In this document: one piece after another, positions 19,624 through 27,637 of the stretch | Position numbering within the stretch: the first letter of the stretch is position 1 | Layout of the letters: each line of letters starts with the position of its first letter | IMG/VR virus record: IMGVR_UViG_2728369608_000005 | Direction: 5' to 3' (one strand) | Origin: a virus | Lineage: Duplodnaviria > Heunggongvirae > Uroviricota > Caudoviricetes | Length of the DNA stretch: 36,144 bases | Program-made: the position numbers and the translations under genes | Notes under the pieces: generated by a model | Databases searched by the model: none | Told to the model about the DNA's origin: nothing | The model's input: the letters and a program-made list of their open reading frames with translations, nothing else

Positions 19624-21146
19624 CAGTAATCCTCCAGCATACGGGCCGCCTGACGACGACGGCGTGAGCTTGCCTTCACCGGCCCTTTGTTAATTTCACG
19701 ACTGGCGAAGTACGCCAGCGCCAGTGCGATGGCTGAATCCCCGTGACGCTTGCCACTGTCAGACTTCGCTTTTGAGCGCTGTTCCGGCACGCGGGGAACG
19801 CCGTTTACCACCTGAACGGCCCGCAGGTCATCCAGCGTATCTTCATCCTTCGGTAAATCCACCAGGTTGCCATCTTCCAGCGCAGCCTTGACCGGCGGCA
19901 TATGCTCGCGATACCAGTTTTCAGTTGGCATCACCTGCTTAACCCGGCTGGAGCCGTAGCGCTGCATGGCGTATTCGGCGAGGTAAGAGCCGTTACCACG
20001 GGCATCAAGCGCCGCGCCCATCAGGTTTGGCAGGCCGTCCATCAGGTACCAGGCGATTTGCTCCTGCTGTTTGAACGGCACGTTGCGCAGCTCCAGCACG
20101 AACGGCACGCGGCGAACCAGGTTCTTCTCCTGCAGCAGGGGATAGTCCACCGACAGGTCACCGCTGCGGCCAAAGTCGCGACCCAGGAAAGAACGTGCGT
20201 CAGCGGGGAGCGCCTCCAGCAACGGTTTCAGATGTGTATCAAGCCACTCCTGCGTCTCGCTCCAGCGGACATCATCGGGCTTCAGCTCGTAACCCTCCGG
20301 GCAGGTCAGACGCAACACCGGCGTGCCAGCCGACATACGGGACTCAATCAGGGCGCGGGACAGCCAGGCTCCGCCACCGTTGGCCGGAACACAGTCAAGC
20401 TCCTCCGATGCACCGGCACCGTAGAATTTGTACACCGATGCCATCCACGCCTGCTCGGATGCTTCCGACCATTCTTTCCCGGTACGCAGGCAGACGCGGT
20501 GGAACAGCCCTTGGGACACAGCCTCCTGAAAAGTAATGCGATGTACGCTGCCCCCCTGACGCCCGGCCCGGATATCACCGATAAGCGTATTGAACGGGTT
20601 ATCGTCACCGTCATGGGTGGAGATAACGCGCACTTTACCGCCCCAGATAAGCATCGCCAGCGCCGCCTTCAGCAGTTCGTCCAGTTGCTCATGGAACGCC
20701 GCTTCGTCGATAACGATGATGCCCTGACGGCCACGCAGGTTAGACGGACGGCTGGAGAGCGCGACAACGCGGAAGCCGGAGTCAGGGAATTTGATGGTGT
20801 AGGTCTTGATATGCTTGTCGTCTTCGTCCTCTTCCCAGAAACCCTCTTCGATTTCACTGGCGGCATAGTTGAATGCCCGCGCCCACATCGCACACGCCTG
20901 GATATATTCGACGGTCATGTCCTGGTTATAGGCGATGTAATACACGTTCATCCCACCCGCAGGGGCTGAAGAGGCTGCGGTCAGCACGTCATCGGACGCC
21001 TCAGCCCAGGTGATACCGGTTCGGCGGCTCTTCTCAATCACCTTGAGCGGAGACGTGTCAGCCACCCAGCGCTGCTGGTAGGGCATCAGAACGGCGGGGA
21101 TATCCAGCGCCGAGGTGTCAGGCAAAACAGGAGCAAGCTGGCTCAT
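19623..21146 (-). CDS. Terminase large subunit (Mu gp28-like)
   Basis: 507 aa with nuclease-like acidic motifs, upstream of portal. Confidence 0.8.
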   Translation of the reverse strand: MSQLAPVLPDTSALDIPAVLMPYQQRWVADTSPLKVIEKSRRTGITWAEASDDVLTAASSAPAGGMNVYYIAYNQDMTVEYIQACAMWARAFNYAASEIEEGFWEEDEDDKHIKTYTIKFPDSGFRVVALSSRPSNLRGRQGIIVIDEAAFHEQLDELLKAALAMLIWGGKVRVISTHDGDDNPFNTLIGDIRAGRQGGSVHRITFQEAVSQGLFHRVCLRTGKEWSEASEQAWMASVYKFYGAGASEELDCVPANGGGAWLSRALIESRMSAGTPVLRLTCPEGYELKPDDVRWSETQEWLDTHLKPLLEALPADARSFLGRDFGRSGDLSVDYPLLQEKNLVRRVPFVLELRNVPFKQQEQIAWYLMDGLPNLMGAALDARGNGSYLAEYAMQRYGSSRVKQVMPTENWYREHMPPVKAALEDGNLVDLPKDEDTLDDLRAVQVVNGVPRVPEQRSKAKSDSGKRHGDSAIALALAYFASREINKGPVKASSRRRRQAARMLEDY

Positions 21147-21691
21147 GAGGCAATCCCCAGAATTTCACGACGCAGCGCCTGTACCGCATCGGTTGACAGT
21201 CCACCCTTACGGGCAATTTTCTCGGCGTTGCTGGCCGCCTGCTGCGCTCTGGCCCGGACTTCAGACTGGAACTTCTTGAGGTTGACGGAAGCGCGGGACA
21301 GCGTGGCCACGTTCTTTGCCACCTTCGACAACAGCGCCACGCGCTCTTTGGGGTCGACTTCGCCTTCTTCCGCTTCCTGCAGCTGGACGATGCTCTCGAA
21401 CAGCTCGGTCTGAATCAGGGCGATCACCGCCTCCGAACGTGCATCCTGATCGTCAGCCGCACCTTCGGTCAGCATCCGGGCCGCTTCAGTGGCTGCACGG
21501 ATAGCGCCATAGCGGCGCTCAATCTTCTGGCCATAGCGATGGATAGCCGATTTGCTGATGACATAACCCTGCTCACGCAGCAGGGACTCCAGCTCGTTAT
21601 ACCCGCTGAAGCCGGATTCAGTCAGCGCCCGCTCAAGCCAGCGACGCACGTCTTCCGGCAGCTTTTCTATCGTGCTGCGTCTGGCCATCAT
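21143..21691 (-). CDS. Mu gp27-like protein (putative small terminase / DNA-binding)
   Basis: 182 aa, N-terminal motif EKLPEDVRRWLE...SKSAIHRY, directly upstream of large terminase. Confidence 0.65.
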   Translation of the reverse strand: MMARRSTIEKLPEDVRRWLERALTESGFSGYNELESLLREQGYVISKSAIHRYGQKIERRYGAIRAATEAARMLTEGAADDQDARSEAVIALIQTELFESIVQLQEAEEGEVDPKERVALLSKVAKNVATLSRASVNLKKFQSEVRARAQQAASNAEKIARKGGLSTDAVQALRREILGIAS

Positions 21692-21999
21692 TCACTCCAG
21701 TACTTTTCCGGGCGGGCGATGCCGGGGCCGCATTCCACGGTGTACTCAACCAGATCGACACCGAGGCGGGTCAGGTCGGCAAACCAGTCGCCGGAGGGTT
21801 TTTTCTCCAGATCAACCATTTTGCGATCAGCCAGATAATCCAGCTCACGGCGCAGTTCCAGCGGTGTGGTGTCCGGGTAGATGGCGCGGGACACGTCCAG
21901 CAGCAGCGTCTCGCTGGCGGTGTACGGGCGGGTTTTGTTCAGAGCAACCAGCAGACTCCAGCGCAGGGACTCCCGGCGCACGCGGGCGATATCAACCAT
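21688..21999 (-). CDS. Hypothetical late protein (gp26 position)
   Basis: 103 aa between the lysis cassette and the gp27-like gene. Confidence 0.5.
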   Translation of the reverse strand: MVDIARVRRESLRWSLLVALNKTRPYTASETLLLDVSRAIYPDTTPLELRRELDYLADRKMVDLEKKPSGDWFADLTRLGVDLVEYTVECGPGIARPEKYWSE

Positions 22000-22324
22000 T
22001 ACGACCTCCTGTATGGCGGTACTGCTGTACCAGTTCCAGTTTGTTGTAGAGCGCGTCCAGCTTGGCTTCGATGACCGTCTGGCCCCGGATATAATCCTCT
22101 CGGCGGACGTAGTTCAGCGGTAAATCCGCCTTAAACCGCATAAATTCTTTTTCCAGCTCGCCCCAGTTTGAGGCGGACTGCTGCAGCGACTGCTCAAGGG
22201 AGGCGAACCGCGCCGCCTGACGCTCTTCCGCTTTACTGAACAGCCATTTGGCTATGCCACCGACAAAGCTCATGAAGGTGATGAGGAAACCCACCACCGT
22301 CCAGAATTCAACCTGCAACGTCAT
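21992..22324 (-). CDS. Small membrane protein of the lysis cassette
   Basis: ATG at 22324 overlaps the upstream stop (ATGA); single N-terminal hydrophobic helix VVGFLITFMSFVGGIA. Confidence 0.5.
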   Translation of the reverse strand: MTLQVEFWTVVGFLITFMSFVGGIAKWLFSKAEERQAARFASLEQSLQQSASNWGELEKEFMRFKADLPLNYVRREDYIRGQTVIEAKLDALYNKLELVQQYRHTGGRNG

Positions 22325-22974
22325 TTCTGTAATCCTTCCCGTTCGTCCAGCAGACTGTTTATCTGGCTGCGCCAGCTGCGGCACTGCTTCGCGTTGTCGA
22401 TGATGTTGGCGAGGACGTCACGCTGAGAGATGCCTGAGTCGCGTAGCCAGGCGTCAGCGGTTTCAGGTCGCCCGGACGCTGCGCCAGTGCCGGTGCCAGC
22501 GGCGGCAGTTGCGTCTGAATGACCGGTGTCGACGGATGCGTTGTCATATCCGAGCGCGGCGTTGTACTGGCGCACGAAACCGCGAGTAAACACGCACTCA
22601 ATGGGATGGCTCTTACCTTTTTCATCAATCCAGCGCTGTGTGACATCGTTAATTTGCCCCTGTAGTTGTTTGTTCTGGCTCTCCAGTTGAGCAATCTGCT
22701 CAAGGTAACTGGCTTCAGCCTGCTGCCCGGCGGCTACCTGCTCCTGATACCGTTTTGCCCATGCTCGCAACGCAGCGTTCTCAAGCGTTGCCTGCTCCGT
22801 TTTGTATGTGTCGAATGCTGACTGCAACTCACTGATCGCCTTATCGCCGTCGCGCGTGGCGTTTTCATGCCCGCTTTTGTAGCCCAGGTAATAAAGTCCA
22901 ATCAGAAAAGCATTTATGAGCACTGCCAGCAGCAGACTGCGCCACGGCAGATTTTTTAGCAGGTTAGTCCACAC
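22321..22974 (-). CDS. i-spanin (Rz-like)
   Basis: 217 aa, N-terminal transmembrane helix then Q/A/E-rich coiled-coil region; downstream of endolysin. Confidence 0.6.
   Translation of the reverse strand: MWTNLLKNLPWRSLLLAVLINAFLIGLYYLGYKSGHENATRDGDKAISELQSAFDTYKTEQATLENAALRAWAKRYQEQVAAGQQAEASYLEQIAQLESQNKQLQGQINDVTQRWIDEKGKSHPIECVFTRGFVRQYNAALGYDNASVDTGHSDATAAAGTGTGAASGRPETADAWLRDSGISQRDVLANIIDNAKQCRSWRSQINSLLDEREGLQK
22359..22625 (-). CDS. Candidate embedded o-spanin (Rz1-like lipoprotein)
   Basis: ORF in a different frame inside the i-spanin gene: MKKVRAIPLSACLLAVSC lipobox-like signal followed by a Pro/Thr/Ser-rich tail. Confidence 0.4.
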   Translation of the reverse strand: MKKVRAIPLSACLLAVSCASTTPRSDMTTHPSTPVIQTQLPPLAPALAQRPGDLKPLTPGYATQASLSVTSSPTSSTTRSSAAAGAAR

Positions 22975-23692
22975 AGCTGCCGCCCCCCCATGTCAGATAA
23001 CGGGGGGCCAGTTCGTGCAGGATGCGCTGCGGATAATGACGGTTCTCCCGCCAGTTGGCAGTGCTGCGTCCGGCATTCACCGTGGCGACATGACCAAACC
23101 AGCGGGTGCTGTCCAGCCCCTGCTGCGAGGCCAGCCTCTTGTCCCGCTGTACCCAGCCCAGACCGCCGTTATAGCCCGACAGCGTCATGGCCATACGCTC
23201 GCAGCCGTTGGCGGCGCTGACGCGCTGCCACAGCCAGCGGTCATAACTGACCAGCGCCCGGATGGCCCATGCCGGATTAAACGGCTCACGGCTGTTAAGC
23301 CCCGGCATCAGCTGGCTTATCCAGTCGGCGGTGGCGGGCATAAACTGGGCCAGCCCCTGAGCGCCAGCCGGCGAGACCGCATCAGGTCGCCAGCCGCTTT
23401 CCTGATGCAGTTGCGCGGCGAAATCGGCCACTGGCGCAGACAGTCCCCATTCAAGCCGGGCATTACGGATCACATCATCGCGATACTGCAGCGCAGCCTG
23501 CGGAGGCTGCGCTGCGCGGGCCTGACTGAAGAAGCCGCCACACCAGAGCAGCCAGACAATCACCAGGTTGCCAGCAAGCTGCCACCAGAAGCTGTATTTA
23601 TCGTTACGTGGTTCTCCGTGTCTGATGGCGGTTACGCCCAGACCAAAGGCAAGCAGGATGATGAGGGTGATTTGAGGCCAGTTCATGGTCAC
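22964..23692 (-). CDS. Endolysin, lytic-transglycosylase (SLT) type with N-terminal hydrophobic segments
   Basis: SLT motif ESGWRPDAVSPAGAQGLAQFMP; two N-terminal hydrophobic stretches. Confidence 0.75.
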   Translation of the reverse strand: MTMNWPQITLIILLAFGLGVTAIRHGEPRNDKYSFWWQLAGNLVIVWLLWCGGFFSQARAAQPPQAALQYRDDVIRNARLEWGLSAPVADFAAQLHQESGWRPDAVSPAGAQGLAQFMPATADWISQLMPGLNSREPFNPAWAIRALVSYDRWLWQRVSAANGCERMAMTLSGYNGGLGWVQRDKRLASQQGLDSTRWFGHVATVNAGRSTANWRENRHYPQRILHELAPRYLTWGGGSCVD

Positions 23693-24039
23693 AGTCCTGT
23701 TGCCACAGCCAGACAGACCGCTGCAACAATCAGTGCACGGCGGATTAACGCAGCAGAAAATACAAGGTGAAGGCCGGTCTGCACAGGGAAGCGACCATCA
23801 GCCATCAGCCTGTCATCATGCTTCAGGTACTGACCGGGACGGGCTTTGGGGAAAAGCGAACGGTCAAGCCAGTAGCCCAATACTGCCGCCAGCGTGATGA
23901 GTGACAGCTTGTAGACAACCACCGGCAGCTGCTGGGGCGATACCAGACCGATGGTGCCGAGCAGCAGCACTGAGGTCAGCAGCCAGCCGCTGAGACGTGG
24001 CTTTTTAACAGGGGGAATGAATTTTTTCAGGTTTTTCAT
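23689..24039 (-). CDS. Holin-like membrane protein
   Basis: 116 aa with 2-3 predicted transmembrane helices, first gene of the late arm; AAGGAG Shine-Dalgarno 5 nt upstream. Confidence 0.6.
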   Translation of the reverse strand: MKNLKKFIPPVKKPRLSGWLLTSVLLLGTIGLVSPQQLPVVVYKLSLITLAAVLGYWLDRSLFPKARPGQYLKHDDRLMADGRFPVQTGLHLVFSAALIRRALIVAAVCLAVATGL

Positions 24040-24170
24040 GGGTGTCTCCTTGTTGTGTGGGAGACAGCATCACAAATGTGGCGGGATACGGATTTTAAAG
24101 CGCGTTATAAGTGTTCGCAGAGGGAAGCGGCCAGAATGGTGGCACACAAAACACAGGGGAGGCAAGCACG

Positions 24171-24494
24171 ATGACTGAACCGAAACAGACCGGTCTTAAA
24201 AAAGGGTTCCTCTTTGGGATCAGAACCGGAGAGCAGAATAAAACTTACACGCTAAGCGTGGATGCCAGTTGCCCAACCGAGGCGATTGCAGAACTGAGAA
24301 ACGCGCTGACGGCGCTTGAAACGCGAAGCAGCCATTTCGCCAGCGGAGAAAACAACGTCATGATGATTGGCAATGTGGCGGCGACATCACGATATAAAGC
24401 CGTACCTAATCCTACTACTCAGTTATCCGGCGACCAACGAAGACTGGAAGCGGAATCAGCAGTTCCCAGAACGGTTCTTCCTCACCAGTCTTAA
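24171..24494 (+). CDS. Hypothetical small protein (108 aa)
   Basis: ATG preceded by GGGGAGG at 8-nt spacing; divergent from the holin; last 80 bp overlap the 188-aa gene. Confidence 0.3.
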   Translation: MTEPKQTGLKKGFLFGIRTGEQNKTYTLSVDASCPTEAIAELRNALTALETRSSHFASGENNVMMIGNVAATSRYKAVPNPTTQLSGDQRRLEAESAVPRTVLPHQS

Positions 24495-24981
24495 CCGGGG
24501 CCGCTTCTCCCGCCCAGTAAAGCCAGGCCCGGTGATATAATTCCAGCACCGGGCAATCACTGTTCAATAACCTCATATCTCCGCGATGCACCGGCTCATC
24601 TGTGATTACTTCATATATCGGTGCCGTTCTGATTTCGTCTTCGCCTCTCTCATCGGCCAGTAATGCCCGGAACTTCCTGACTTCACTCAGATGCTGACAG
24701 GCAAACAGTGACTGATAGCGGGAAGGTTTGTCAGGAAAATGGCTACGGCGAACTAACTCAAACACCAGACCGACCAGCAGACTTCTGCTGACTCCACTGT
24801 CATCTTCCATTTTAGGGCCGGGGTTATAGAGATAGTTATGACCGTGCTTGGAAAGACCATCGGGATACATCTGATGAAGGAAAGCGGCCAGCTCCGGCGC
24901 TTCAGGTTCGTATTTTCCGGTAATTACATGGCAAGGCGAAGGCAGACGATTAGCGGAATCAAGTGTGTAATACGTTCCCAT
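24415..24981 (-). CDS. Hypothetical protein (188 aa), unknown function
   Basis: ATG-initiated ORF immediately upstream of the lysis/late arm; no family recognised. Confidence 0.55.
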   Translation of the reverse strand: MGTYYTLDSANRLPSPCHVITGKYEPEAPELAAFLHQMYPDGLSKHGHNYLYNPGPKMEDDSGVSRSLLVGLVFELVRRSHFPDKPSRYQSLFACQHLSEVRKFRALLADERGEDEIRTAPIYEVITDEPVHRGDMRLLNSDCPVLELYHRAWLYWAGEAAPVKTGEEEPFWELLIPLPVFVGRRITE

Positions 24982-25224
24982 TCAGAAAACAATCCTTATC
25001 GAACAAACACTGCACGTAGGTAACACATCCAGTAAATCGCGTTAATAGAAAACAGTTATCCATAAGCCTCATCCTGACAATGAAAGAACGACCAGCCCGG
25101 TGCGGTAACACCAGGCTGGTCATCAACCCACAGGTATGCACTGTGAGCCGACCAGGGTTCAGTCAGTCTCGCGAGACCAGACTAGCCTGCCATATTTTCA
25201 CTGATTGCAAAAGGCTTACGGATA

Positions 25225-25995
25225 ATGAAAGAACAATCTTTACCCATCGTTCCATGGATTGGCGGCAAACGTCGTCTGGCTAAGCATATTCTGCCGCTGT
25301 TCCCGGCCCATACCTGCTATGTGGAGCCGTTCTGTGGGGCCGCTGCGCTCTATTTTCTTAAGACACCCAGCAAGACCGAAGTCATTAACGATATCAACGG
25401 GGAACTGGTGAACCTCTATCGGGTGGTCAAGCATCATCTGGAAGAATTTGTTCGCCAGTTCAAATGGGCGCTGGTCAGCCGTCAGATTTACAAATGGTTG
25501 CAGGATACGCCGGAAGAAACTCTCACCGACATTCAGCGGGCGGCCCGGTTCTACTACCTGCAGAAACAGGCGTTTGGCGGCAAGGTGGCCGATCACTCGT
25601 TCGGAACCTCCACCACAAGTGCGCCGCGCTTTAACCTCCTGCGCATCGAAGAAGAACTGTCGATGGCACACCTGCGCCTGTCGAGAACGCTGATAGAGCA
25701 TCTGGACTGGCACCAGTGCATAGAGCGATATGATCGCCCGCATACGCTGTTCTACTGTGACCCACCATACTGGGGAACAGAGGGCTATGGTGTGGAGTTC
25801 GGGCTGGAAAACTATGATCACATGGCAGATTTAGCGCGAAGGATCAAAGGGAAGATGATTATATCAGTGAACGATATCCCGGAAATGCGGCAGGTATTCA
25901 ACGGTCTGAACATGCAGTCGGTTGATATCAGCTACAACCTTAAGGTAACAGGTAAACCCAGCCCGAAGAAAGAGCTGGTAATTTGTAATTTTTGA
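25225..25995 (+). CDS. DNA adenine methyltransferase, Dam family, no adjacent restriction gene
   Basis: N-terminal PWIGGKRRL and FCGAAALYF motifs and catalytic DPPY (FYCDPPYWGT). Confidence 0.85.
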   Translation: MKEQSLPIVPWIGGKRRLAKHILPLFPAHTCYVEPFCGAAALYFLKTPSKTEVINDINGELVNLYRVVKHHLEEFVRQFKWALVSRQIYKWLQDTPEETLTDIQRAARFYYLQKQAFGGKVADHSFGTSTTSAPRFNLLRIEEELSMAHLRLSRTLIEHLDWHQCIERYDRPHTLFYCDPPYWGTEGYGVEFGLENYDHMADLARRIKGKMIISVNDIPEMRQVFNGLNMQSVDISYNLKVTGKPSPKKELVICNF

Positions 25996-26008
25996 AAGAG
26001 GTAGTTAA

Positions 26009-26036
26009 AGGTGGTGGTGCATCTGCAGCACCACCT
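26009..26036. terminator. Hairpin between convergent Dam and lipoprotein genes (possible bidirectional terminator)
   Basis: AGGTGGTGGTGCA / TGCAGCACCACCT, 13-bp stem with one mismatch; weak T-tracts on both sides. Confidence 0.4.
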
Positions 26037-26042
26037 AAACAT

Positions 26043-26576
26043 TTAATCCTGCCTTGGACAAGTCCAATAATCATTATCTGGCTCTGGTGAATAAGCTTTC
26101 AAACAACCTGCTCGCGGGGTCTTACCATCATCTGTCATAGGAACTTTTTCCTTATCAAGTTTCACGGTCAGGTCTCCACCAGGAACATCCGTTTTATCGA
26201 AAAAAACAGCCTGACATGCTGATTTAGATATTTTCACTTCGTGGGCATTATTTGATATGAACAAATAACAATTATGACCAGAGGCTATGTAGTCACTTGG
26301 AATATTATTTTCGTCTTTAATATGAAACTGCACCGTTGTCACCGGGCGTTCGCTATCCTCGGATACTTCGACTTTTTCAAAACTGTCCGCGTACTTATCC
26401 AGGCCGGGGAGTTGTTGGCGAATAAACGGTAATTCGCGATTTACAACCGGATTATCTGTTTCAACGCTAAAAACCGCGTGCTCCTTAGCTGTGGTGGACG
26501 TATCAGCAGGATCGGTATTATCTCCACACCCAGATAAAACAAATATCAACGGTAAAAATAATTTGCGCATAGTCAT
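26043..26576 (-). CDS. Lipoprotein moron (candidate lysogenic-conversion / superinfection-exclusion protein)
   Basis: Signal peptide with lipobox LSGC; gene visibly AT-rich versus surrounding phage DNA; 35 bp downstream of the repressor on the same strand. Second ATG at 26570 has better Shine-Dalgarno spacing. Confidence 0.75.
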   Translation of the reverse strand: MTMRKLFLPLIFVLSGCGDNTDPADTSTTAKEHAVFSVETDNPVVNRELPFIRQQLPGLDKYADSFEKVEVSEDSERPVTTVQFHIKDENNIPSDYIASGHNCYLFISNNAHEVKISKSACQAVFFDKTDVPGGDLTVKLDKEKVPMTDDGKTPRAGCLKAYSPEPDNDYWTCPRQD

Positions 26577-26611
26577 GTCCTTATACCTCTAATGTTCTTA
26601 ATAGGAACAGA

Positions 26612-27022
26612 TTAACCCGTATTTTTTAATCTTTCGAACGCTGCGGACAGCTCCTTAAGCTGTTTTTCCATATCAATCATTCGCTGTTTTTCCTCAGCGC
26701 CTCGCAGCAACTCTTTTCGCACCTCTGGCTCCAGTTGGTTGAGCAGCTCCAATAACTTCAGATCAGACTGGTTGAAATGCTGCTCCTGATTAGCTGGCTG
26801 TGCTTTCTCTACCCCAACAGCTTCCCCTTTACCAGTAAGTAGCCAATCTATTGATATGTTCAAATGGGTGCTTAGCGCAACAAGAGCCTCTGCATTAGGT
26901 TCTCTCTCTCCACGCAGATAGTTTTGAAGTGAGCGATATGGAATTTTTGACAAGTCTGACAATGCCTTAATTGTCAGACCCTTAGCATCCATCGCTTCGC
27001 GCAATCTCTCTTTTATACTCAT
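26612..27022 (-). CDS. Phage repressor, XRE-family HTH
   Basis: Internal ATG at 27022 (MSIKERLREAMDAKGLTIKALSDLSKIPYRSLQNYLRGER, 136 aa); divergent from the early operon. Confidence 0.75.
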   Translation of the reverse strand: MSIKERLREAMDAKGLTIKALSDLSKIPYRSLQNYLRGEREPNAEALVALSTHLNISIDWLLTGKGEAVGVEKAQPANQEQHFNQSDLKLLELLNQLEPEVRKELLRGAEEKQRMIDMEKQLKELSAAFERLKNTG

Positions 27023-27038
27023 TTGAACATATCTCAAT

Positions 27039-27066
27039 TTGACATACCCGTTTGGGTGCGTACAAT
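27039..27066 (+). promoter_or_regulatory. Candidate early promoter (sigma-70 type) for the ner-A-B operon
   Basis: TTGACA (27039..27044), 16-bp spacer, TACAAT (27061..27066); AGGAA Shine-Dalgarno 10 nt before the ATG at 27111. Confidence 0.5.
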
Positions 27067-27110
27067 AGACCCAATAGAGTACATCATAACCCAACAGGAA
27101 CACGGTGCAT

Positions 27111-27335
27111 ATGAACAAACAACAAGTTCGGGCACGGCTGGTTGAAAGAGGCAGTAGCTTGCGCCAGTTCGCGCTTAACGCGGGCTATGAGCCACGAACA
27201 GTCACCCAGGCTGTCAGCCGCTGGGCAGGCAAAAGCGAACTTCCACGCGGTCGTTTGACTTATCGGATTTTGCGAGACCTTTCGGTCGCAATAGGCAAAG
27301 AAGTTACCCCCGGCATCCTCAAGGAGGCGTCATGA
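27111..27335 (+). CDS. ner: Ner-like DNA-binding protein
   Basis: 74 aa; LRQFALNAGYEPRTVTQAV pattern resembles Mu Ner; first gene of the early operon. Confidence 0.65.
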   Translation: MNKQQVRARLVERGSSLRQFALNAGYEPRTVTQAVSRWAGKSELPRGRLTYRILRDLSVAIGKEVTPGILKEAS

Positions 27336-27637
27336 GTAAACCAAATACATCAAGCTCAGGTACCCGTATTTTGCGTGTCCTTAAGGCTTTACGCGGTCAC
27401 GCTCTGAACGGTGTTTCTAACGGCGAGCTGGCGTCAGCTCTGGGCGAGTCCCCGGCGAATATCAATCGGGCGCTCAATACCCTTATCGAAGAAGGACTGG
27501 CCCTGAAACTGGATAACGGGCGTTTTGCCCCAGGAGTCCAGCTCTTACAAATCGCCATGGCGCACAGTACCGAAATGGCGCGGGCGCAGGATCGTATCAA
27601 TGAAATTAACCAGCGTGTTATGGCTGGTAGTCGCTAA
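27332..27637 (+). CDS. Winged-HTH DNA-binding protein (IclR-N-like, no effector domain)
   Basis: 101 aa; RILRVLKAL...GVSNGELASALGESPANINRALNTLIEEGLA; ATGA overlap with ner. Confidence 0.55.
   Translation: MSKPNTSSSGTRILRVLKALRGHALNGVSNGELASALGESPANINRALNTLIEEGLALKLDNGRFAPGVQLLQIAMAHSTEMARAQDRINEINQRVMAGSR

What the first reader, a model, noticed from the sequence alone, without database searches (positions are those of the whole stretch)
21992..24039. Lysis cassette with membrane-anchored transglycosylase endolysin and a candidate embedded o-spanin
The cassette order is holin, SLT-type endolysin, i-spanin, small membrane protein. The endolysin carries N-terminal hydrophobic segments, so it may be a signal-anchor-release or membrane-tethered enzyme. 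A Pro-rich lipoprotein ORF lies in another frame inside the i-spanin gene, the embedded Rz/Rz1 architecture.
Basis: partly seen in the sequence, partly recalled or inferred. Interest (0 to 1): 0.4.

Follow-up and report, generated by a model that had tools for sequence, protein, structure and literature searches.

The report
BcepMu-type phage lysis cassette
This is the ordinary, already described cell-bursting gene set of a Mu-like prophage common in E. coli (holin, wall-cutting enzyme, nested spanin pair); its one less-described feature is a two-helix membrane leader on the enzyme that looks cleavable rather than a permanent anchor.

Summary
On the minus strand lie a holin (24039-23689), an SLT lytic-transglycosylase endolysin (23686-22964), an i-spanin (22974-22321), a +1-frame embedded lipoprotein o-spanin (22625-22359) and a 110-aa single-TMD protein (22324-21992). 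The gp26 homologue and the terminase genes follow.

The window is a BcepMu-like transposable prophage. It is 99.9% identical to deposited records, and the region matches 638 of 5426 complete E. coli genomes. BcepMu's GenBank record already annotates the same order, including "Rz1, out of frame, embedded".

The embedded ORF has a lipobox (LAVS|C). It is conserved in 76 of 85 related loci and shares a motif with BcepMu gp24 and B3 Rz1.

The SAR or membrane-tether reading is not favoured. The endolysin has two hydrophobic helices (predicted N-out/C-out). They are followed by an A-x-A|A junction whose Ala positions are about 92-98% conserved while x varies, which is a signal-peptidase-I signature. 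Close relatives carry a plain signal peptide or a lipobox instead, and 48 Pseudomonas phages encode the hairpin as a separate 52-aa gene.

The small membrane protein sits where Mu's releasin gp25 sits and has the same topology. Homology to DUF2730 was tested and not found.

Overall it is a known kind, of low to moderate interest.

The parts
23689..24039 (-). Holin, 116 aa, BcepMu gp21 family. It has a basic N-terminus and three hydrophobic stretches.
   Evidence: PF13272 Holin_2-3 E=6.9e-41; phrog_1528 E=1.2e-53; SD AAGGAG upstream; hydropathy. Function is inferred from family membership and was not tested.
22964..23686 (-). SLT-type lytic transglycosylase endolysin, 240 aa. An alternative GTG start at 23692 overlaps the holin stop.
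   Evidence: PF01464 E=4.3e-15; phrog_669 E=1.9e-70. E. coli Slt70 (1sly) E=1.2e-6, with the E-S motif of Slt70 (ARQES) aligned to HQES, E96. 56% and 52% identity to BcepMu gp22 and B3 ORF25.
23513..23686 (-). Endolysin leader, residues 1-58. It consists of TMD1 (about 3-21), a basic loop (22-32), TMD2 (about 33-53, WLLWCGGFF) and the junction A56-R57-A58|A59.
   Evidence: Hydropathy. Residues 3-56 hit phrog_5479, E=1.4e-13. Junction statistics and charge bias. AF2 helices 3-24 and 30-49, with pLDDT<50 at 56-60, from a low-confidence model. The same module is a separate 52-aa ORF in Fc02 and 47 other Pseudomonas phage records.
22321..22974 (-). i-spanin (Rz equivalent), 217 aa: N-terminal TMD, helical periplasmic domain, two Cys.
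   Evidence: phrog_1403 Rz-like spanin E=8.8e-87; TMD SLLLAVLINAFLIGLYYLG; positional homologue of BcepMu gp23 'Rz'. It is mislabelled 'lipoprotein' in RefSeq and KP12.
22359..22625 (-). o-spanin (Rz1 equivalent), 88-aa precursor, in the +1 frame and wholly inside the i-spanin gene. Signal MKKVRAIPLSACLLAVS|C (Cys18 codon at 22574-22572). Mature part 71 aa, 14% Pro, Ala at +2, no further Cys.
   Evidence: Lipobox by the PROSITE-type pattern. The shared motif PPL..L..RP....PL.PGY is present in BcepMu gp24 (annotated 'Rz1, out of frame, embedded proline-rich protein'), B3 and Fc02. Conserved in 76 of 85 loci. Not annotated in KP12 or RefSeq.
21992..22324 (-). gp25-like membrane protein, 110 aa: one N-terminal TMD (predicted N-out/C-in), then a helical cytoplasmic domain with the motif ADLPxxYVRREDYIRGQTVIEAKLDAL. 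It has no Cys, so it is not a lipoprotein.
   Evidence: phrog_462 E=1.1e-34; BcepMu gp25 'putative inner membrane protein'; family of 1069 50%-identity clusters; alignments; AF2 gives a single helix 7-104. It is not DUF2730 by Pfam or hhalign.
21688..21999 (-). Mu gp26 homologue (context marker for synteny).
   Evidence: phrog_436 E=1e-41, the same family as Mu gp26 (7.3e-43) and Fc02_27 (1.1e-38).
21143..21691 (-). Terminase small subunit, Mu gp27 family (context).
   Evidence: PF11985 E=3e-56; phrog_426.

Best explanation
This is the lysis module at the head of the late (morphogenesis) genes of a BcepMu-like transposable prophage of Enterobacteriaceae.

Proposed mechanism:
1. The PF13272 holin accumulates in the inner membrane and sets the timing (inferred from family membership).
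2. The SLT lytic transglycosylase does not wait in the cytoplasm. It is exported by the Sec system through its own N-terminal leader. Here the leader is a two-helix hairpin (N-terminus out, basic loop in the cytoplasm, C-terminus out).
3. The second helix of the hairpin ends in a signal-peptidase-I type A-x-A|A site. The most likely course is cleavage between A58 and A59. That would release a free periplasmic enzyme starting AQPPQAALQYR and leave a 58-residue hairpin peptide in the membrane (inferred from comparative sequence evidence, not shown).
4. The exported enzyme stays harmless until the holin collapses the membrane potential. This is by analogy with secreted endolysins such as Lys44 of phage fOg44, and is an inference.
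5. The i-spanin and the embedded outer-membrane lipoprotein o-spanin then disrupt the outer membrane, as lambda Rz/Rz1 do.
6. The 110-aa protein is the BcepMu gp25 family member. It occupies exactly the slot of the Mu releasin gp25 (between the spanins and gp26/TerS) with the same topology. It may therefore be a functional analogue, but that is only positional evidence.
For: Identity of the element:
- 99.9% identity to OM835952 and to E. coli prophages; 68% identity to BcepMu and B3 over the cassette.
- The rest of the window encodes a CI-type repressor, an rve transposase, a MuB-like AAA protein, DUF3164 and GemA.
- The same gene order is annotated in BcepMu as gp21 holin, gp22 SLT, gp23 Rz, gp24 embedded Rz1 and gp25 inner membrane protein.

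The catalytic E-S motif aligns with Slt70.

o-spanin:
- Lipobox, +1 frame, and a motif shared with BcepMu gp24 and B3.
- Conserved in 76 of 85 loci, as 59 distinct sequences.
- BcepMu/phiE255 and B3/JBD families are listed as embedded two-component spanins in PMC6139136.

Export and cleavage:
- All 120 homologues and 77 viral loci whose N-terminus could be read carry some N-terminal export signal, unless visibly truncated.
- Junction conservation is A 90/98, x variable (N43, R20, H17, A7, S4, D4), A 96/98, A 95/98.
- The N-tail charge is about 0 and the loop has a mean K+R of 2.6.
- Relatives with the same holin have plain signal peptides ending S-D-A|A-Q or V-A-A|Q, with no separate hairpin gene.
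- Independently diverged B3 keeps A-K-A|D at the same junction.
- A SignalP-predicted signal peptide was already reported for the related KS10 lysin (PMC2628397).

gp25 slot:
- Mu, Fc02 and B23 have DUF2730/phrog_736 there. The window, BcepMu and B3 have phrog_462. In every case the phrog_436 gp26 homologue comes next.
Against: - Nothing here has been tested experimentally.
- The h-region of helix 2 is about 21 residues, which is long for a cleavable signal. It contains Gly, Asn and Cys, as SAR domains do, so a non-cleaved anchor is possible.
- SignalP, LipoP and TMHMM-class predictors were not available. Topology rests on hydropathy and the positive-inside rule.
- The AF2 model of the endolysin is of low confidence (pLDDT 57.6).
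- Chamblee et al. (PMC9239132) classify the related Pseudomonas SLT endolysins as SAR endolysins.
- The o-spanin has a weak SD, only 14% Pro and no periplasmic Cys, unlike BcepMu, B3 and lambda Rz1.
- The gp25-like family reaches Gram-positive Mu-like phages, which have no spanins. That argues its role may not be lysis-specific.
Confidence: 0.8

Rival explanations
1. First reader's reading. The endolysin is not cleaved. Its hydrophobic N-terminus holds it in the inner membrane, either as a SAR-type anchor released on depolarisation or as a permanent two-helix tether, until the holin fires.
For: - Helix 2 is only moderately hydrophobic (KD 1.43) and is rich in Gly, Trp, Asn and Cys.
- Its h-region is about 21 residues, long for a cleaved signal.
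- PMC9239132 treats the SLT endolysins of Pseudomonas Mu-like siphophages as SAR endolysins paired with DUF2730.
- The cassette carries a gp25-like protein in the releasin position.
Against: - There are two helices with a charged loop (R, E, R, D, K). Release of the hairpin to the periplasm would require moving that loop across the membrane.
- The conserved A-x-A|A junction has a variable -2 position.
- Close homologues have textbook cleavable signals or a lipobox at the same junction.
- Cys49 in helix 2 is replaced by Ser or Ala in many homologues, so a P1 Lyz-type disulfide cage is unlikely.
Confidence: 0.3
2. Two-in-one precursor. The 58-residue hairpin is a lysis protein in its own right, for example an antiholin or holin partner. 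The fused gene is a polyprotein that signal peptidase splits into the hairpin peptide and the free enzyme.
For: - Residues 3-56 hit phrog_5479.
- In Fc02 and 47 other Pseudomonas B3-like phage records the same module is a free-standing 52-aa ORF between the holin and an endolysin that has its own lipobox signal.
- B3 and the enteric phages have it fused in frame, with an A-x-A junction.
- Some records annotate the small ORF as 'holin' or 'phage lysis protein'.
Against: - The hairpin is dispensable in the lineage. BcepMu, the Ralstonia phage and the Brenneria/Pectobacterium-type prophages have the same holin and enzyme without it.
- TMD1 is poorly conserved and in the PhiKM clade carries charged residues.
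- No function is known for phrog_5479.
- It could simply be a variant export leader.
Confidence: 0.25
3. The embedded ORF is a chance open frame in a GC-rich gene and is not expressed. Outer-membrane disruption would then rely on something else.
For: - Long alternative-frame open stretches are common: >=114 codons in 35% of synonymous resamplings.
- No Pfam, PHROG or NCBIfam hit.
- Weak SD.
- Not annotated in KP12 or RefSeq.
Against: - A lipoprotein-like signal arises in only 4.9% of resamplings.
- The start, the basic n-region, the lipobox Cys and the PPL..RP..L.PGY motif are kept in 59 distinct sequences across 76 of 85 loci.
- They are also kept in BcepMu gp24, B3 and Fc02 at about 68% DNA identity or less.
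- These families are curated embedded spanins.
Confidence: 0.03
4. The 110-aa gp25-like protein is not a lysis protein. It is a membrane-associated factor of head morphogenesis or DNA packaging that is common to Mu-like phages.
For: - It is always followed by the gp26 homologue and the terminase genes.
- Its conserved C-terminal motif is found in the Gram-positive Mu-like phages BalMu-1 and FP_Mushu (E=2e-4 and 2e-3).
- No homology to the releasin family was detectable.
- PMC9239132 notes that DUF2730 also occurs with cytoplasmic endolysins.
Against: - It has the same size, the same predicted N-out/C-in topology and the same slot as the Mu releasin.
- Within B3-like phages the slot holds either DUF2730 (Fc02) or phrog_462 (B3, JD18, JBD67), which suggests interchangeable function.
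Confidence: 0.4

Closest known systems
Burkholderia phage BcepMu lysis cassette gp21-gp25 (AY539836) and its enteric relatives
   Same: Same gene order and homologous proteins: PF13272 holin, SLT endolysin (56% identity), Rz, an embedded +1 Rz1 with the shared PPL..RP..PL.PGY motif, and the gp25 inner-membrane protein (about 46-49% identity). These are followed by gp26, TerS and TerL.
   Different: BcepMu gp22 has a single classical signal peptide (MRVLIAFVVALLGAAAPVAA|Q), whereas the window enzyme has an extra N-terminal helix and loop. BcepMu Rz1 has a second periplasmic Cys and 25% Pro, against no second Cys and 14% Pro here.
Phage lambda Rz/Rz1 embedded two-component spanin
   Same: The i-spanin has an N-terminal TMD and a helical periplasmic domain. 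The o-spanin is a small Pro-containing OM lipoprotein encoded in the +1 frame wholly inside the i-spanin gene. It starts near 0.5 L and ends near 0.9 L, the typical range given in PMC6139136.
   Different: There is no detectable sequence homology to lambda Rz/Rz1. The mature o-spanin is longer (71 aa against 40) and lacks the periplasmic Cys that lambda uses for intermolecular disulfides. The i-spanin does have two Cys.
Phage Mu gp22 (SAR endolysin) and gp25 (releasin, DUF2730) system, PMC9239132
   Same: Both are transposable phages. The order is endolysin, spanins, a small N-out/C-in single-TMD protein, then the gp26 homologue (phrog_436) and gp27 TerS.
   Different: Mu has no holin and its endolysin is a muramidase with one SAR helix. 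Here there is a holin and an SLT enzyme with a two-helix leader and an A-x-A site. The small protein is phrog_462, not DUF2730: 0 of 25 and 2 of 86 sub-threshold Pfam hits, and hhalign probability 3-4%.
Pseudomonas B3-like phages (B3, Fc02, JBD/JD18)
   Same: Homologous holin, SLT enzyme (52% identity), embedded or overlapped Rz/Rz1, and the phrog_5479 hairpin module. B3 has the hairpin fused in frame with an A-K-A|D junction, as in the window.
   Different: In Fc02-type phages the hairpin is a separate 52-aa gene and the endolysin has its own signal with a perfect lipobox (LLSA|C). Fc02 carries DUF2730 where B3 and the window carry phrog_462.
Secreted endolysins with cleavable signal peptides (Lys44 of Oenococcus phage fOg44; predicted for Burkholderia phage KS10)
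   Same: The endolysin carries its own Sec signal with a predicted signal-peptidase site, and the holin is needed for activation rather than transport. Lys44 is cited from my own knowledge and from PMC2628397.
   Different: Lys44 is from a Gram-positive system and belongs to another enzyme class. In the window the leader has an additional upstream helix. Cleavage has not been demonstrated.

Membership tests
Two-component spanin, embedded architecture (Rz/Rz1 type) | [quoted passage not shown] | tested here: met
   One TMD at residues about 12-30; phrog_1403 Rz-like spanin E=8.8e-87; the gene overlaps the endolysin stop.
Two-component spanin, embedded architecture (Rz/Rz1 type) | o-spanin: small protein with a lipoprotein signal (lipobox Cys) and no Asp at +2 | tested here: met
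   MKKVRAIPLSACLLAVS|CAS fits the PROSITE-type lipobox pattern, with Ala at +2. A dedicated predictor (LipoP or SignalP) was not available. Cys12 (LSA|C) is a less likely alternative.
Two-component spanin, embedded architecture (Rz/Rz1 type) | o-spanin gene lies out of frame and wholly inside the i-spanin gene | tested here: met
   +1 frame, 22625-22359 inside 22974-22321, spanning 0.53-0.94 L. The same arrangement was found in 65 or more related loci.
Two-component spanin, embedded architecture (Rz/Rz1 type) | Periplasmic Cys residues for intermolecular disulfides | tested here: inconclusive
   The i-spanin has two Cys. The mature o-spanin of this clade has none, whereas BcepMu, B3 and several enteric relatives have one.
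Two-component spanin, embedded architecture (Rz/Rz1 type) | Required for outer-membrane disruption (spherical-cell phenotype when knocked out) | not testable with these tools
   This needs genetics.
SAR (signal-anchor-release) endolysin | A single N-terminal, weakly hydrophobic, N-in/C-out TMD | tested here: not met
   There are two hydrophobic helices. The first is strongly hydrophobic (KD 1.87). The predicted topology is N-out/C-out, with a basic cytoplasmic loop.
SAR (signal-anchor-release) endolysin | No signal-peptidase cleavage site; the anchor is retained and released without proteolysis | tested here: not met
   Sequence-level test only. There is a conserved A-x-A|A junction, and homologues have classical signal peptides or lipobox signals at the same point. 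Actual processing was not tested.
Family 1 lytic transglycosylase (SLT domain) | PF01464 match above threshold and the catalytic Glu in the E-S motif | tested here: met
   55.8 bits against a cut-off of 21.3. HQES (E96) aligns with RQES of Slt70 and is invariant in 34 homologues.
Holin (PF13272, BcepMu gp21 type) | Small membrane protein with at least one TMD, family match, encoded next to the endolysin | tested here: met
   139.2 bits against a cut-off of 27; three hydrophobic stretches; immediately upstream of the endolysin. Hole formation was not tested for this family here.
Releasin / DUF2730 (Mu gp25) | Sequence membership in PF10805 | tested here: not met
   No hit for the window protein, BcepMu gp25 or B3 ORF28. 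0 of 25 and 2 of 86 family members hit, both sub-threshold (best E=0.025). hhalign against the Mu gp25 family gave probability 4.3% and 2.8%. Two UniRef names call close relatives 'DUF2730', but neither hit PF10805 in the Pfam scan of alignment A2, which includes both, and NCBIfam found no family for them.
Releasin / DUF2730 (Mu gp25) | [quoted passage not shown] | tested here: met
   TMD at residues 7-29, an acidic N-tail and basic residues after the TMD. AF2 gives a single helix 7-104. The gene is the third after the endolysin and lies directly upstream of the gp26 homologue.
Releasin / DUF2730 (Mu gp25) | Required for release or activation of the endolysin | not testable with these tools
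   This needs genetics.

The most novel reading that the evidence does not exclude
The endolysin gene may encode a precursor that host signal peptidase splits into two working parts. One part is a free periplasmic lytic transglycosylase. The other is a 58-residue two-helix membrane peptide equivalent to the free-standing phrog_5479 protein of Pseudomonas B3-like phages, acting as a regulator of holin triggering. In parallel, the phrog_462 protein would be a non-homologous replacement for the DUF2730 releasin. Together these would describe a lysis-control scheme not yet described for Mu-like phages.
Probability: 0.2. Interest if true: 0.55.

Novelty: new member of a known kind. Interest (0 to 1): 0.25.

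Why it matters
Mostly it matters for annotation. This prophage family matches about 12% of complete E. coli genomes (638 of 5426). In the records examined (one RefSeq E. coli genome and KP12), the real outer-membrane lipoprotein (the o-spanin) is unannotated while the i-spanin is labelled 'lipoprotein'.

Biologically, the family offers a natural series of export signals on one conserved SLT enzyme with one conserved holin: a plain signal peptide, a lipobox signal, a fused two-helix leader, and a separate hairpin gene. That series is a convenient system for asking how an already-exported endolysin is kept harmless until the holin fires. It could also test whether the gp25 slot of Mu-like phages holds interchangeable 'releasin-like' proteins.

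Tried and rejected
1. Homology of the 110-aa protein to the Mu releasin. I ran Pfam on the protein, on BcepMu gp25 and B3 ORF28, and on 25 and 86 family members. I also ran NCBIfam, hhalign against a 17-sequence Mu gp25 alignment, and a local hmmsearch of that profile against 147 representatives (best E=0.0024 in that tiny set). All were negative or sub-threshold. It was rerun as A4.

2. AlphaFold of the 110-aa protein gave one long helix. That is unsuitable for fold search, so no Foldseek run was made.

3. AlphaFold of the endolysin gave mean pLDDT 57.6. It is too weak for fold search and was used only for helix boundaries.

4. ORF length as evidence for the o-spanin was rejected after resampling showed that long alternative-frame ORFs are common.

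5. A first heuristic for picking the i-spanin frame in related loci misassigned about 20 loci. It was replaced by a motif-based scan.

6. The sigma-70 promoter and terminator scan of 21500-25300 found nothing above shuffle expectation near the cassette. Late promoters of Mu-like phages are activator-dependent, so this is uninformative.

7. The bioRxiv paper 10.64898/2026.09.09.750462 and PMC13522114 turned out not to concern this endolysin family.

8. A P1 Lyz-type disulfide-caging role for Cys49 was rejected because Ser or Ala replaces it in many homologues.

Full report
WHAT IS THERE

All genes of the finding are on the minus strand. In transcription order they are as follows.

- Holin, 24039-23689, 116 aa. 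It has a strong SD, aaggagacacccATG. It hits PF13272 Holin_2-3 at E=6.9e-41 and phrog_1528 'holin' at E=1.2e-53.
- SLT endolysin, 23686-22964, 240 aa. The first-listed GTG at 23692 overlaps the holin stop, but GenBank and RefSeq use the ATG. It hits PF01464 at E=4.3e-15 and phrog_669 at E=1.9e-70. Its HQES motif aligns with the E-S motif of E. coli Slt70 (1sly, E=1.2e-6). E96 is invariant in 34 homologues.
- i-spanin, 22974-22321, 217 aa. It has one N-terminal TMD and hits phrog_1403 'Rz-like spanin' at E=8.8e-87.
- Embedded ORF in the +1 frame. Its plausible start is the ATG at 22625 and its stop is at 22359 (88 aa).
- A 110-aa protein, 22324-21992. Its ATG overlaps the i-spanin stop as ATGA. 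The 130-aa GTG ORF that defines the finding's lower boundary is an over-extension.
- Downstream come a Mu gp26 homologue (phrog_436), TerS (PF11985, Mu gp27) and TerL.

WHERE IT COMES FROM

The 3-kb region is 99.9% identical to 'Klebsiella phage KP12 clone KP12_2' and to E. coli prophages. It matches 638 of 5426 complete E. coli genomes, mostly at 80-90% identity. It is 68% identical to Burkholderia phage BcepMu and Pseudomonas phage B3.

The rest of the window carries a CI-type repressor, an rve transposase, a MuB-like AAA protein, DUF3164 and GemA. It is therefore a Mu-like transposable prophage of the BcepMu type.

The BcepMu GenBank record annotates the same cassette: gp21 holin, gp22 'putative soluble lytic murein transglycosylase', gp23 Rz, gp24 'Rz1, out of frame, embedded proline-rich protein' and gp25 'putative inner membrane protein'. 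The BcepMu/phiE255 and B3/JBD spanins are listed as embedded two-component families in the spanin survey PMC6139136.

THE EMBEDDED o-SPANIN

The precursor reads MKKVRAIPLSACLLAVS|CASTTPRSD... It has a basic n-region, an 11-residue h-region, a lipobox that fits the PROSITE-type pattern, and Ala at +2. That is compatible with outer-membrane sorting by the E. coli +2 rule, which is established knowledge. The mature part is 71 aa with 14% Pro. It spans 0.53-0.94 of the i-spanin length, the typical range for embedded spanins (PMC6139136).

ORF length by itself is not evidence. Synonymous resampling of the i-spanin gives alternative-frame open stretches of >=114 codons in 35% of trials. A lipoprotein-like signal arises in only 4.9% of trials.

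The decisive evidence is conservation. The same +1-frame lipoprotein, with the motif PPL..L..RP....PL.PGY, is present in BcepMu gp24, B3, Fc02, PhiKM and E. coli S12. It is also present in 76 of 85 related loci, as 59 distinct sequences. Most of the remaining loci carry a divergent lipoprotein ORF in the same place.

This clade lacks the second, periplasmic Cys that BcepMu, B3 and several other relatives have. The i-spanin has two Cys. The o-spanin is unannotated in KP12 and in the RefSeq genome examined, while the i-spanin is labelled 'lipoprotein' although it has no lipobox.

THE ENDOLYSIN N-TERMINUS

There are two of them:
- residues about 3-21 (WPQITLIILLAFGLGVTAI, KD 1.87);
- residues about 33-53 (FWWQLAGNLVIVWLLWCGGFF, KD 1.43).

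They are separated by the loop RHGEPRNDKYS. Across 88 two-segment homologues the N-tail has net charge about 0 and the loop carries on average 2.6 Lys+Arg. The positive-inside rule therefore predicts N-out, loop-in, C-out, which places the SLT domain in the periplasm.

Immediately after helix 2 the junction reads S-Q-A-x-A-A-[Q/E]-P-P. The Ala positions are at 90/98, 96/98 and 95/98, while x is N, R, H, A, S, D and others. This is the -3/-1 pattern of signal peptidase I substrates, with cleavage predicted between A58 and A59.

The comparative series is telling.
- BcepMu (MRVLIAFVVALLGAAAPVAA|QVP), a Ralstonia phage (…CQAAVA|QVP) and Brenneria/Pectobacterium-type prophages (…LLLVGTFDSDA|AQPP) have a single classical signal peptide joined to the same mature N-terminus. 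They have the same holin and no extra small ORF.
- One homologue has a lipobox signal (…LLSG|C).
- Short forms look like deletions that fuse helix 1 to the end of helix 2.
- In Pseudomonas phage Fc02 and 47 other B3-like phage records the hairpin is a separate 52-aa gene (MGAPQIIWIV…VWWGGFFG*, phrog_5479 E=2.4e-31). It lies between the holin and an endolysin with its own signal MKRLLTLGLLGLLSA|C.
- B3 itself has the hairpin fused in frame with an A-K-A|D junction.

Every variant thus carries a processing motif directly upstream of the conserved mature domain. From this I infer that the enzyme family is Sec-exported and processed, and is not a SAR endolysin. I also infer that the window's leader is either a variant export signal or a fusion with a small membrane protein.

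This is inference. No cleavage has been shown, and dedicated predictors were not available. The long h-region and the Gly/Asn/Cys content leave room for a non-cleaved anchor. PMC9239132 classifies the related Pseudomonas enzymes as SAR endolysins. A SignalP-predicted signal peptide on the related KS10 lysin was reported earlier (PMC2628397).

THE SMALL MEMBRANE PROTEIN

This protein belongs to a large family: 731 hits in the word-based search and 1069 clusters at 50% identity in the exhaustive search. The family has an N-terminal TMD and a very conserved C-terminal motif, ADLPxxYVRREDYIRGQTVIEAKLDAL. The window protein contains no Cys, so the PHROG label 'lipoprotein' is wrong.

It occupies the slot of the Mu releasin gp25. 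In Mu, Fc02 and Alteromonadaceae phage B23 the gene directly upstream of the gp26 homologue (phrog_436) is DUF2730/phrog_736. In the window, BcepMu and B3 it is phrog_462. Size and predicted N-out/C-in topology match.

Homology, however, was tested and not found.
- There were no PF10805 hits for the window protein, BcepMu gp25 or B3 ORF28.
- 0 of 25 family members, and 2 of 86 (both sub-threshold), hit PF10805.
- hhalign probability against a Mu gp25 family profile was 4.3% and 2.8%.

Two UniRef names call close relatives 'DUF2730'. Neither hit PF10805 in the Pfam scan of alignment A2, which includes both, and NCBIfam found no family for them.

The C-terminal motif also turns up in the Gram-positive Mu-like phages BalMu-1 and FP_Mushu. 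That cautions against a strictly lysis-specific role. I therefore describe the protein as a positional and architectural analogue of the releasin. It is not a member of DUF2730.

MECHANISM

Steps marked 'shown' are supported directly by sequence. Steps marked 'inferred' are not.
- Shown: gene identities, order, frames, signals, conservation and homology to the BcepMu and B3 cassettes.
- Inferred from family knowledge: the holin times lysis by permeabilising or depolarising the inner membrane.
- Inferred from family knowledge: the spanin complex disrupts the outer membrane.
- Inferred from comparative sequence: the SLT enzyme is exported by Sec and probably cleaved at A58|A59. It would wait in the periplasm until holin triggering, as described for secreted endolysins such as Lys44 of fOg44 (own knowledge; cited in PMC2628397).
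- Speculative: the released hairpin peptide and the gp25-like protein modulate timing or activation.

VERDICT

It is the known BcepMu-type lysis cassette in a very common enterobacterial prophage.

The one interpretive claim that went beyond the known, a SAR or membrane-tethered endolysin, is the part the evidence does not favour.

Three features are modestly new:
- the fused, separate or absent hairpin module with a conserved signal-peptidase junction;
- the replacement of DUF2730 by phrog_462 in the releasin slot;
- the systematic mis-annotation of the spanin pair.

Interest is 0.25. Novelty: new member of a known kind.

Noticed in passing
window 22321-22974 and 22359-22625 (also OM835952 KP12_278 and RefSeq WP_032438838.1): Public records label the i-spanin 'lipoprotein' or 'putative lipoprotein' although it has no lipobox. 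The true lipoprotein, the embedded o-spanin, is not annotated at all. PHROG phrog_462 ('lipoprotein') is likewise a Cys-free TMD protein in this window.
   Followed up: yes
window 24171-24494, + strand: There is a 107-aa ORF (MTEPKQTGLKKGFLFGIRTGEQNKTY...) with a good SD (GGGGAGG, 8 nt upstream). It lies in the 375-bp gap upstream of the holin, on the opposite strand, and overlaps the 3' end of the DUF2441 gene by about 80 nt. It has no Pfam hit and is not annotated in KP12 or RefSeq. The RefSeq locus-tag series skips one number here (RS08850).
   Followed up: partly
window about 24000-27500: G+C drops to 0.43-0.51, against about 0.59 in the structural genes. The region holds a DUF2441 protein (24415-24981, minus strand), a DNA adenine methylase (25225-25995, plus strand), a 177-aa ORF with no family (26043-26576, minus strand) and the CI-type repressor (26612-27118, minus strand). 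It is probably a moron or accessory region between the lysis and early modules. It differs between relatives: E. coli S12 and PhiKM have other genes here.
   Followed up: partly
OM835952.1 (locus L001): The record that is 99.9% identical to the window is deposited as 'Klebsiella phage KP12 clone KP12_2', with taxonomy Vequintavirinae. It is in fact a BcepMu-like transposable prophage that is also found nearly identical in E. coli chromosomes. It is probably a co-induced prophage contig with a misassigned lineage.
   Followed up: partly
L009 2770-3399 (Pseudomonas phage Fc02 endolysin): PMC9239132 groups the SLT endolysins of Pseudomonas Mu-like siphophages as SAR endolysins. The Fc02 enzyme starts MKRLLTLGLLGLLSACQPAFATD, which contains a textbook lipobox (LLSA|C) and also an A-F-A|T site. 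It may be a lipoprotein or a cleaved secreted enzyme rather than a SAR endolysin.
   Followed up: partly
Bacillus phage BalMu-1 (NC_030945, 11904-12047) and Faecalibacterium phage FP_Mushu (NC_047913, 12355-12462): The conserved C-terminal motif of the gp25-like family (YVRREDY...IEAKLD) is detectable by tblastn in Gram-positive Mu-like phages (E=2e-4 and 2e-3, 48-56% identity over 36-45 residues). This hints that the family's role is common to Mu-like phages and is not tied to the Gram-negative envelope.
   Followed up: no
window 25087-25124, minus strand: There is a 17-bp-stem (9 G-C pairs) terminator-like hairpin followed by a T-rich tail. It lies between the divergently arranged DUF2441 and methylase genes.
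   Followed up: no
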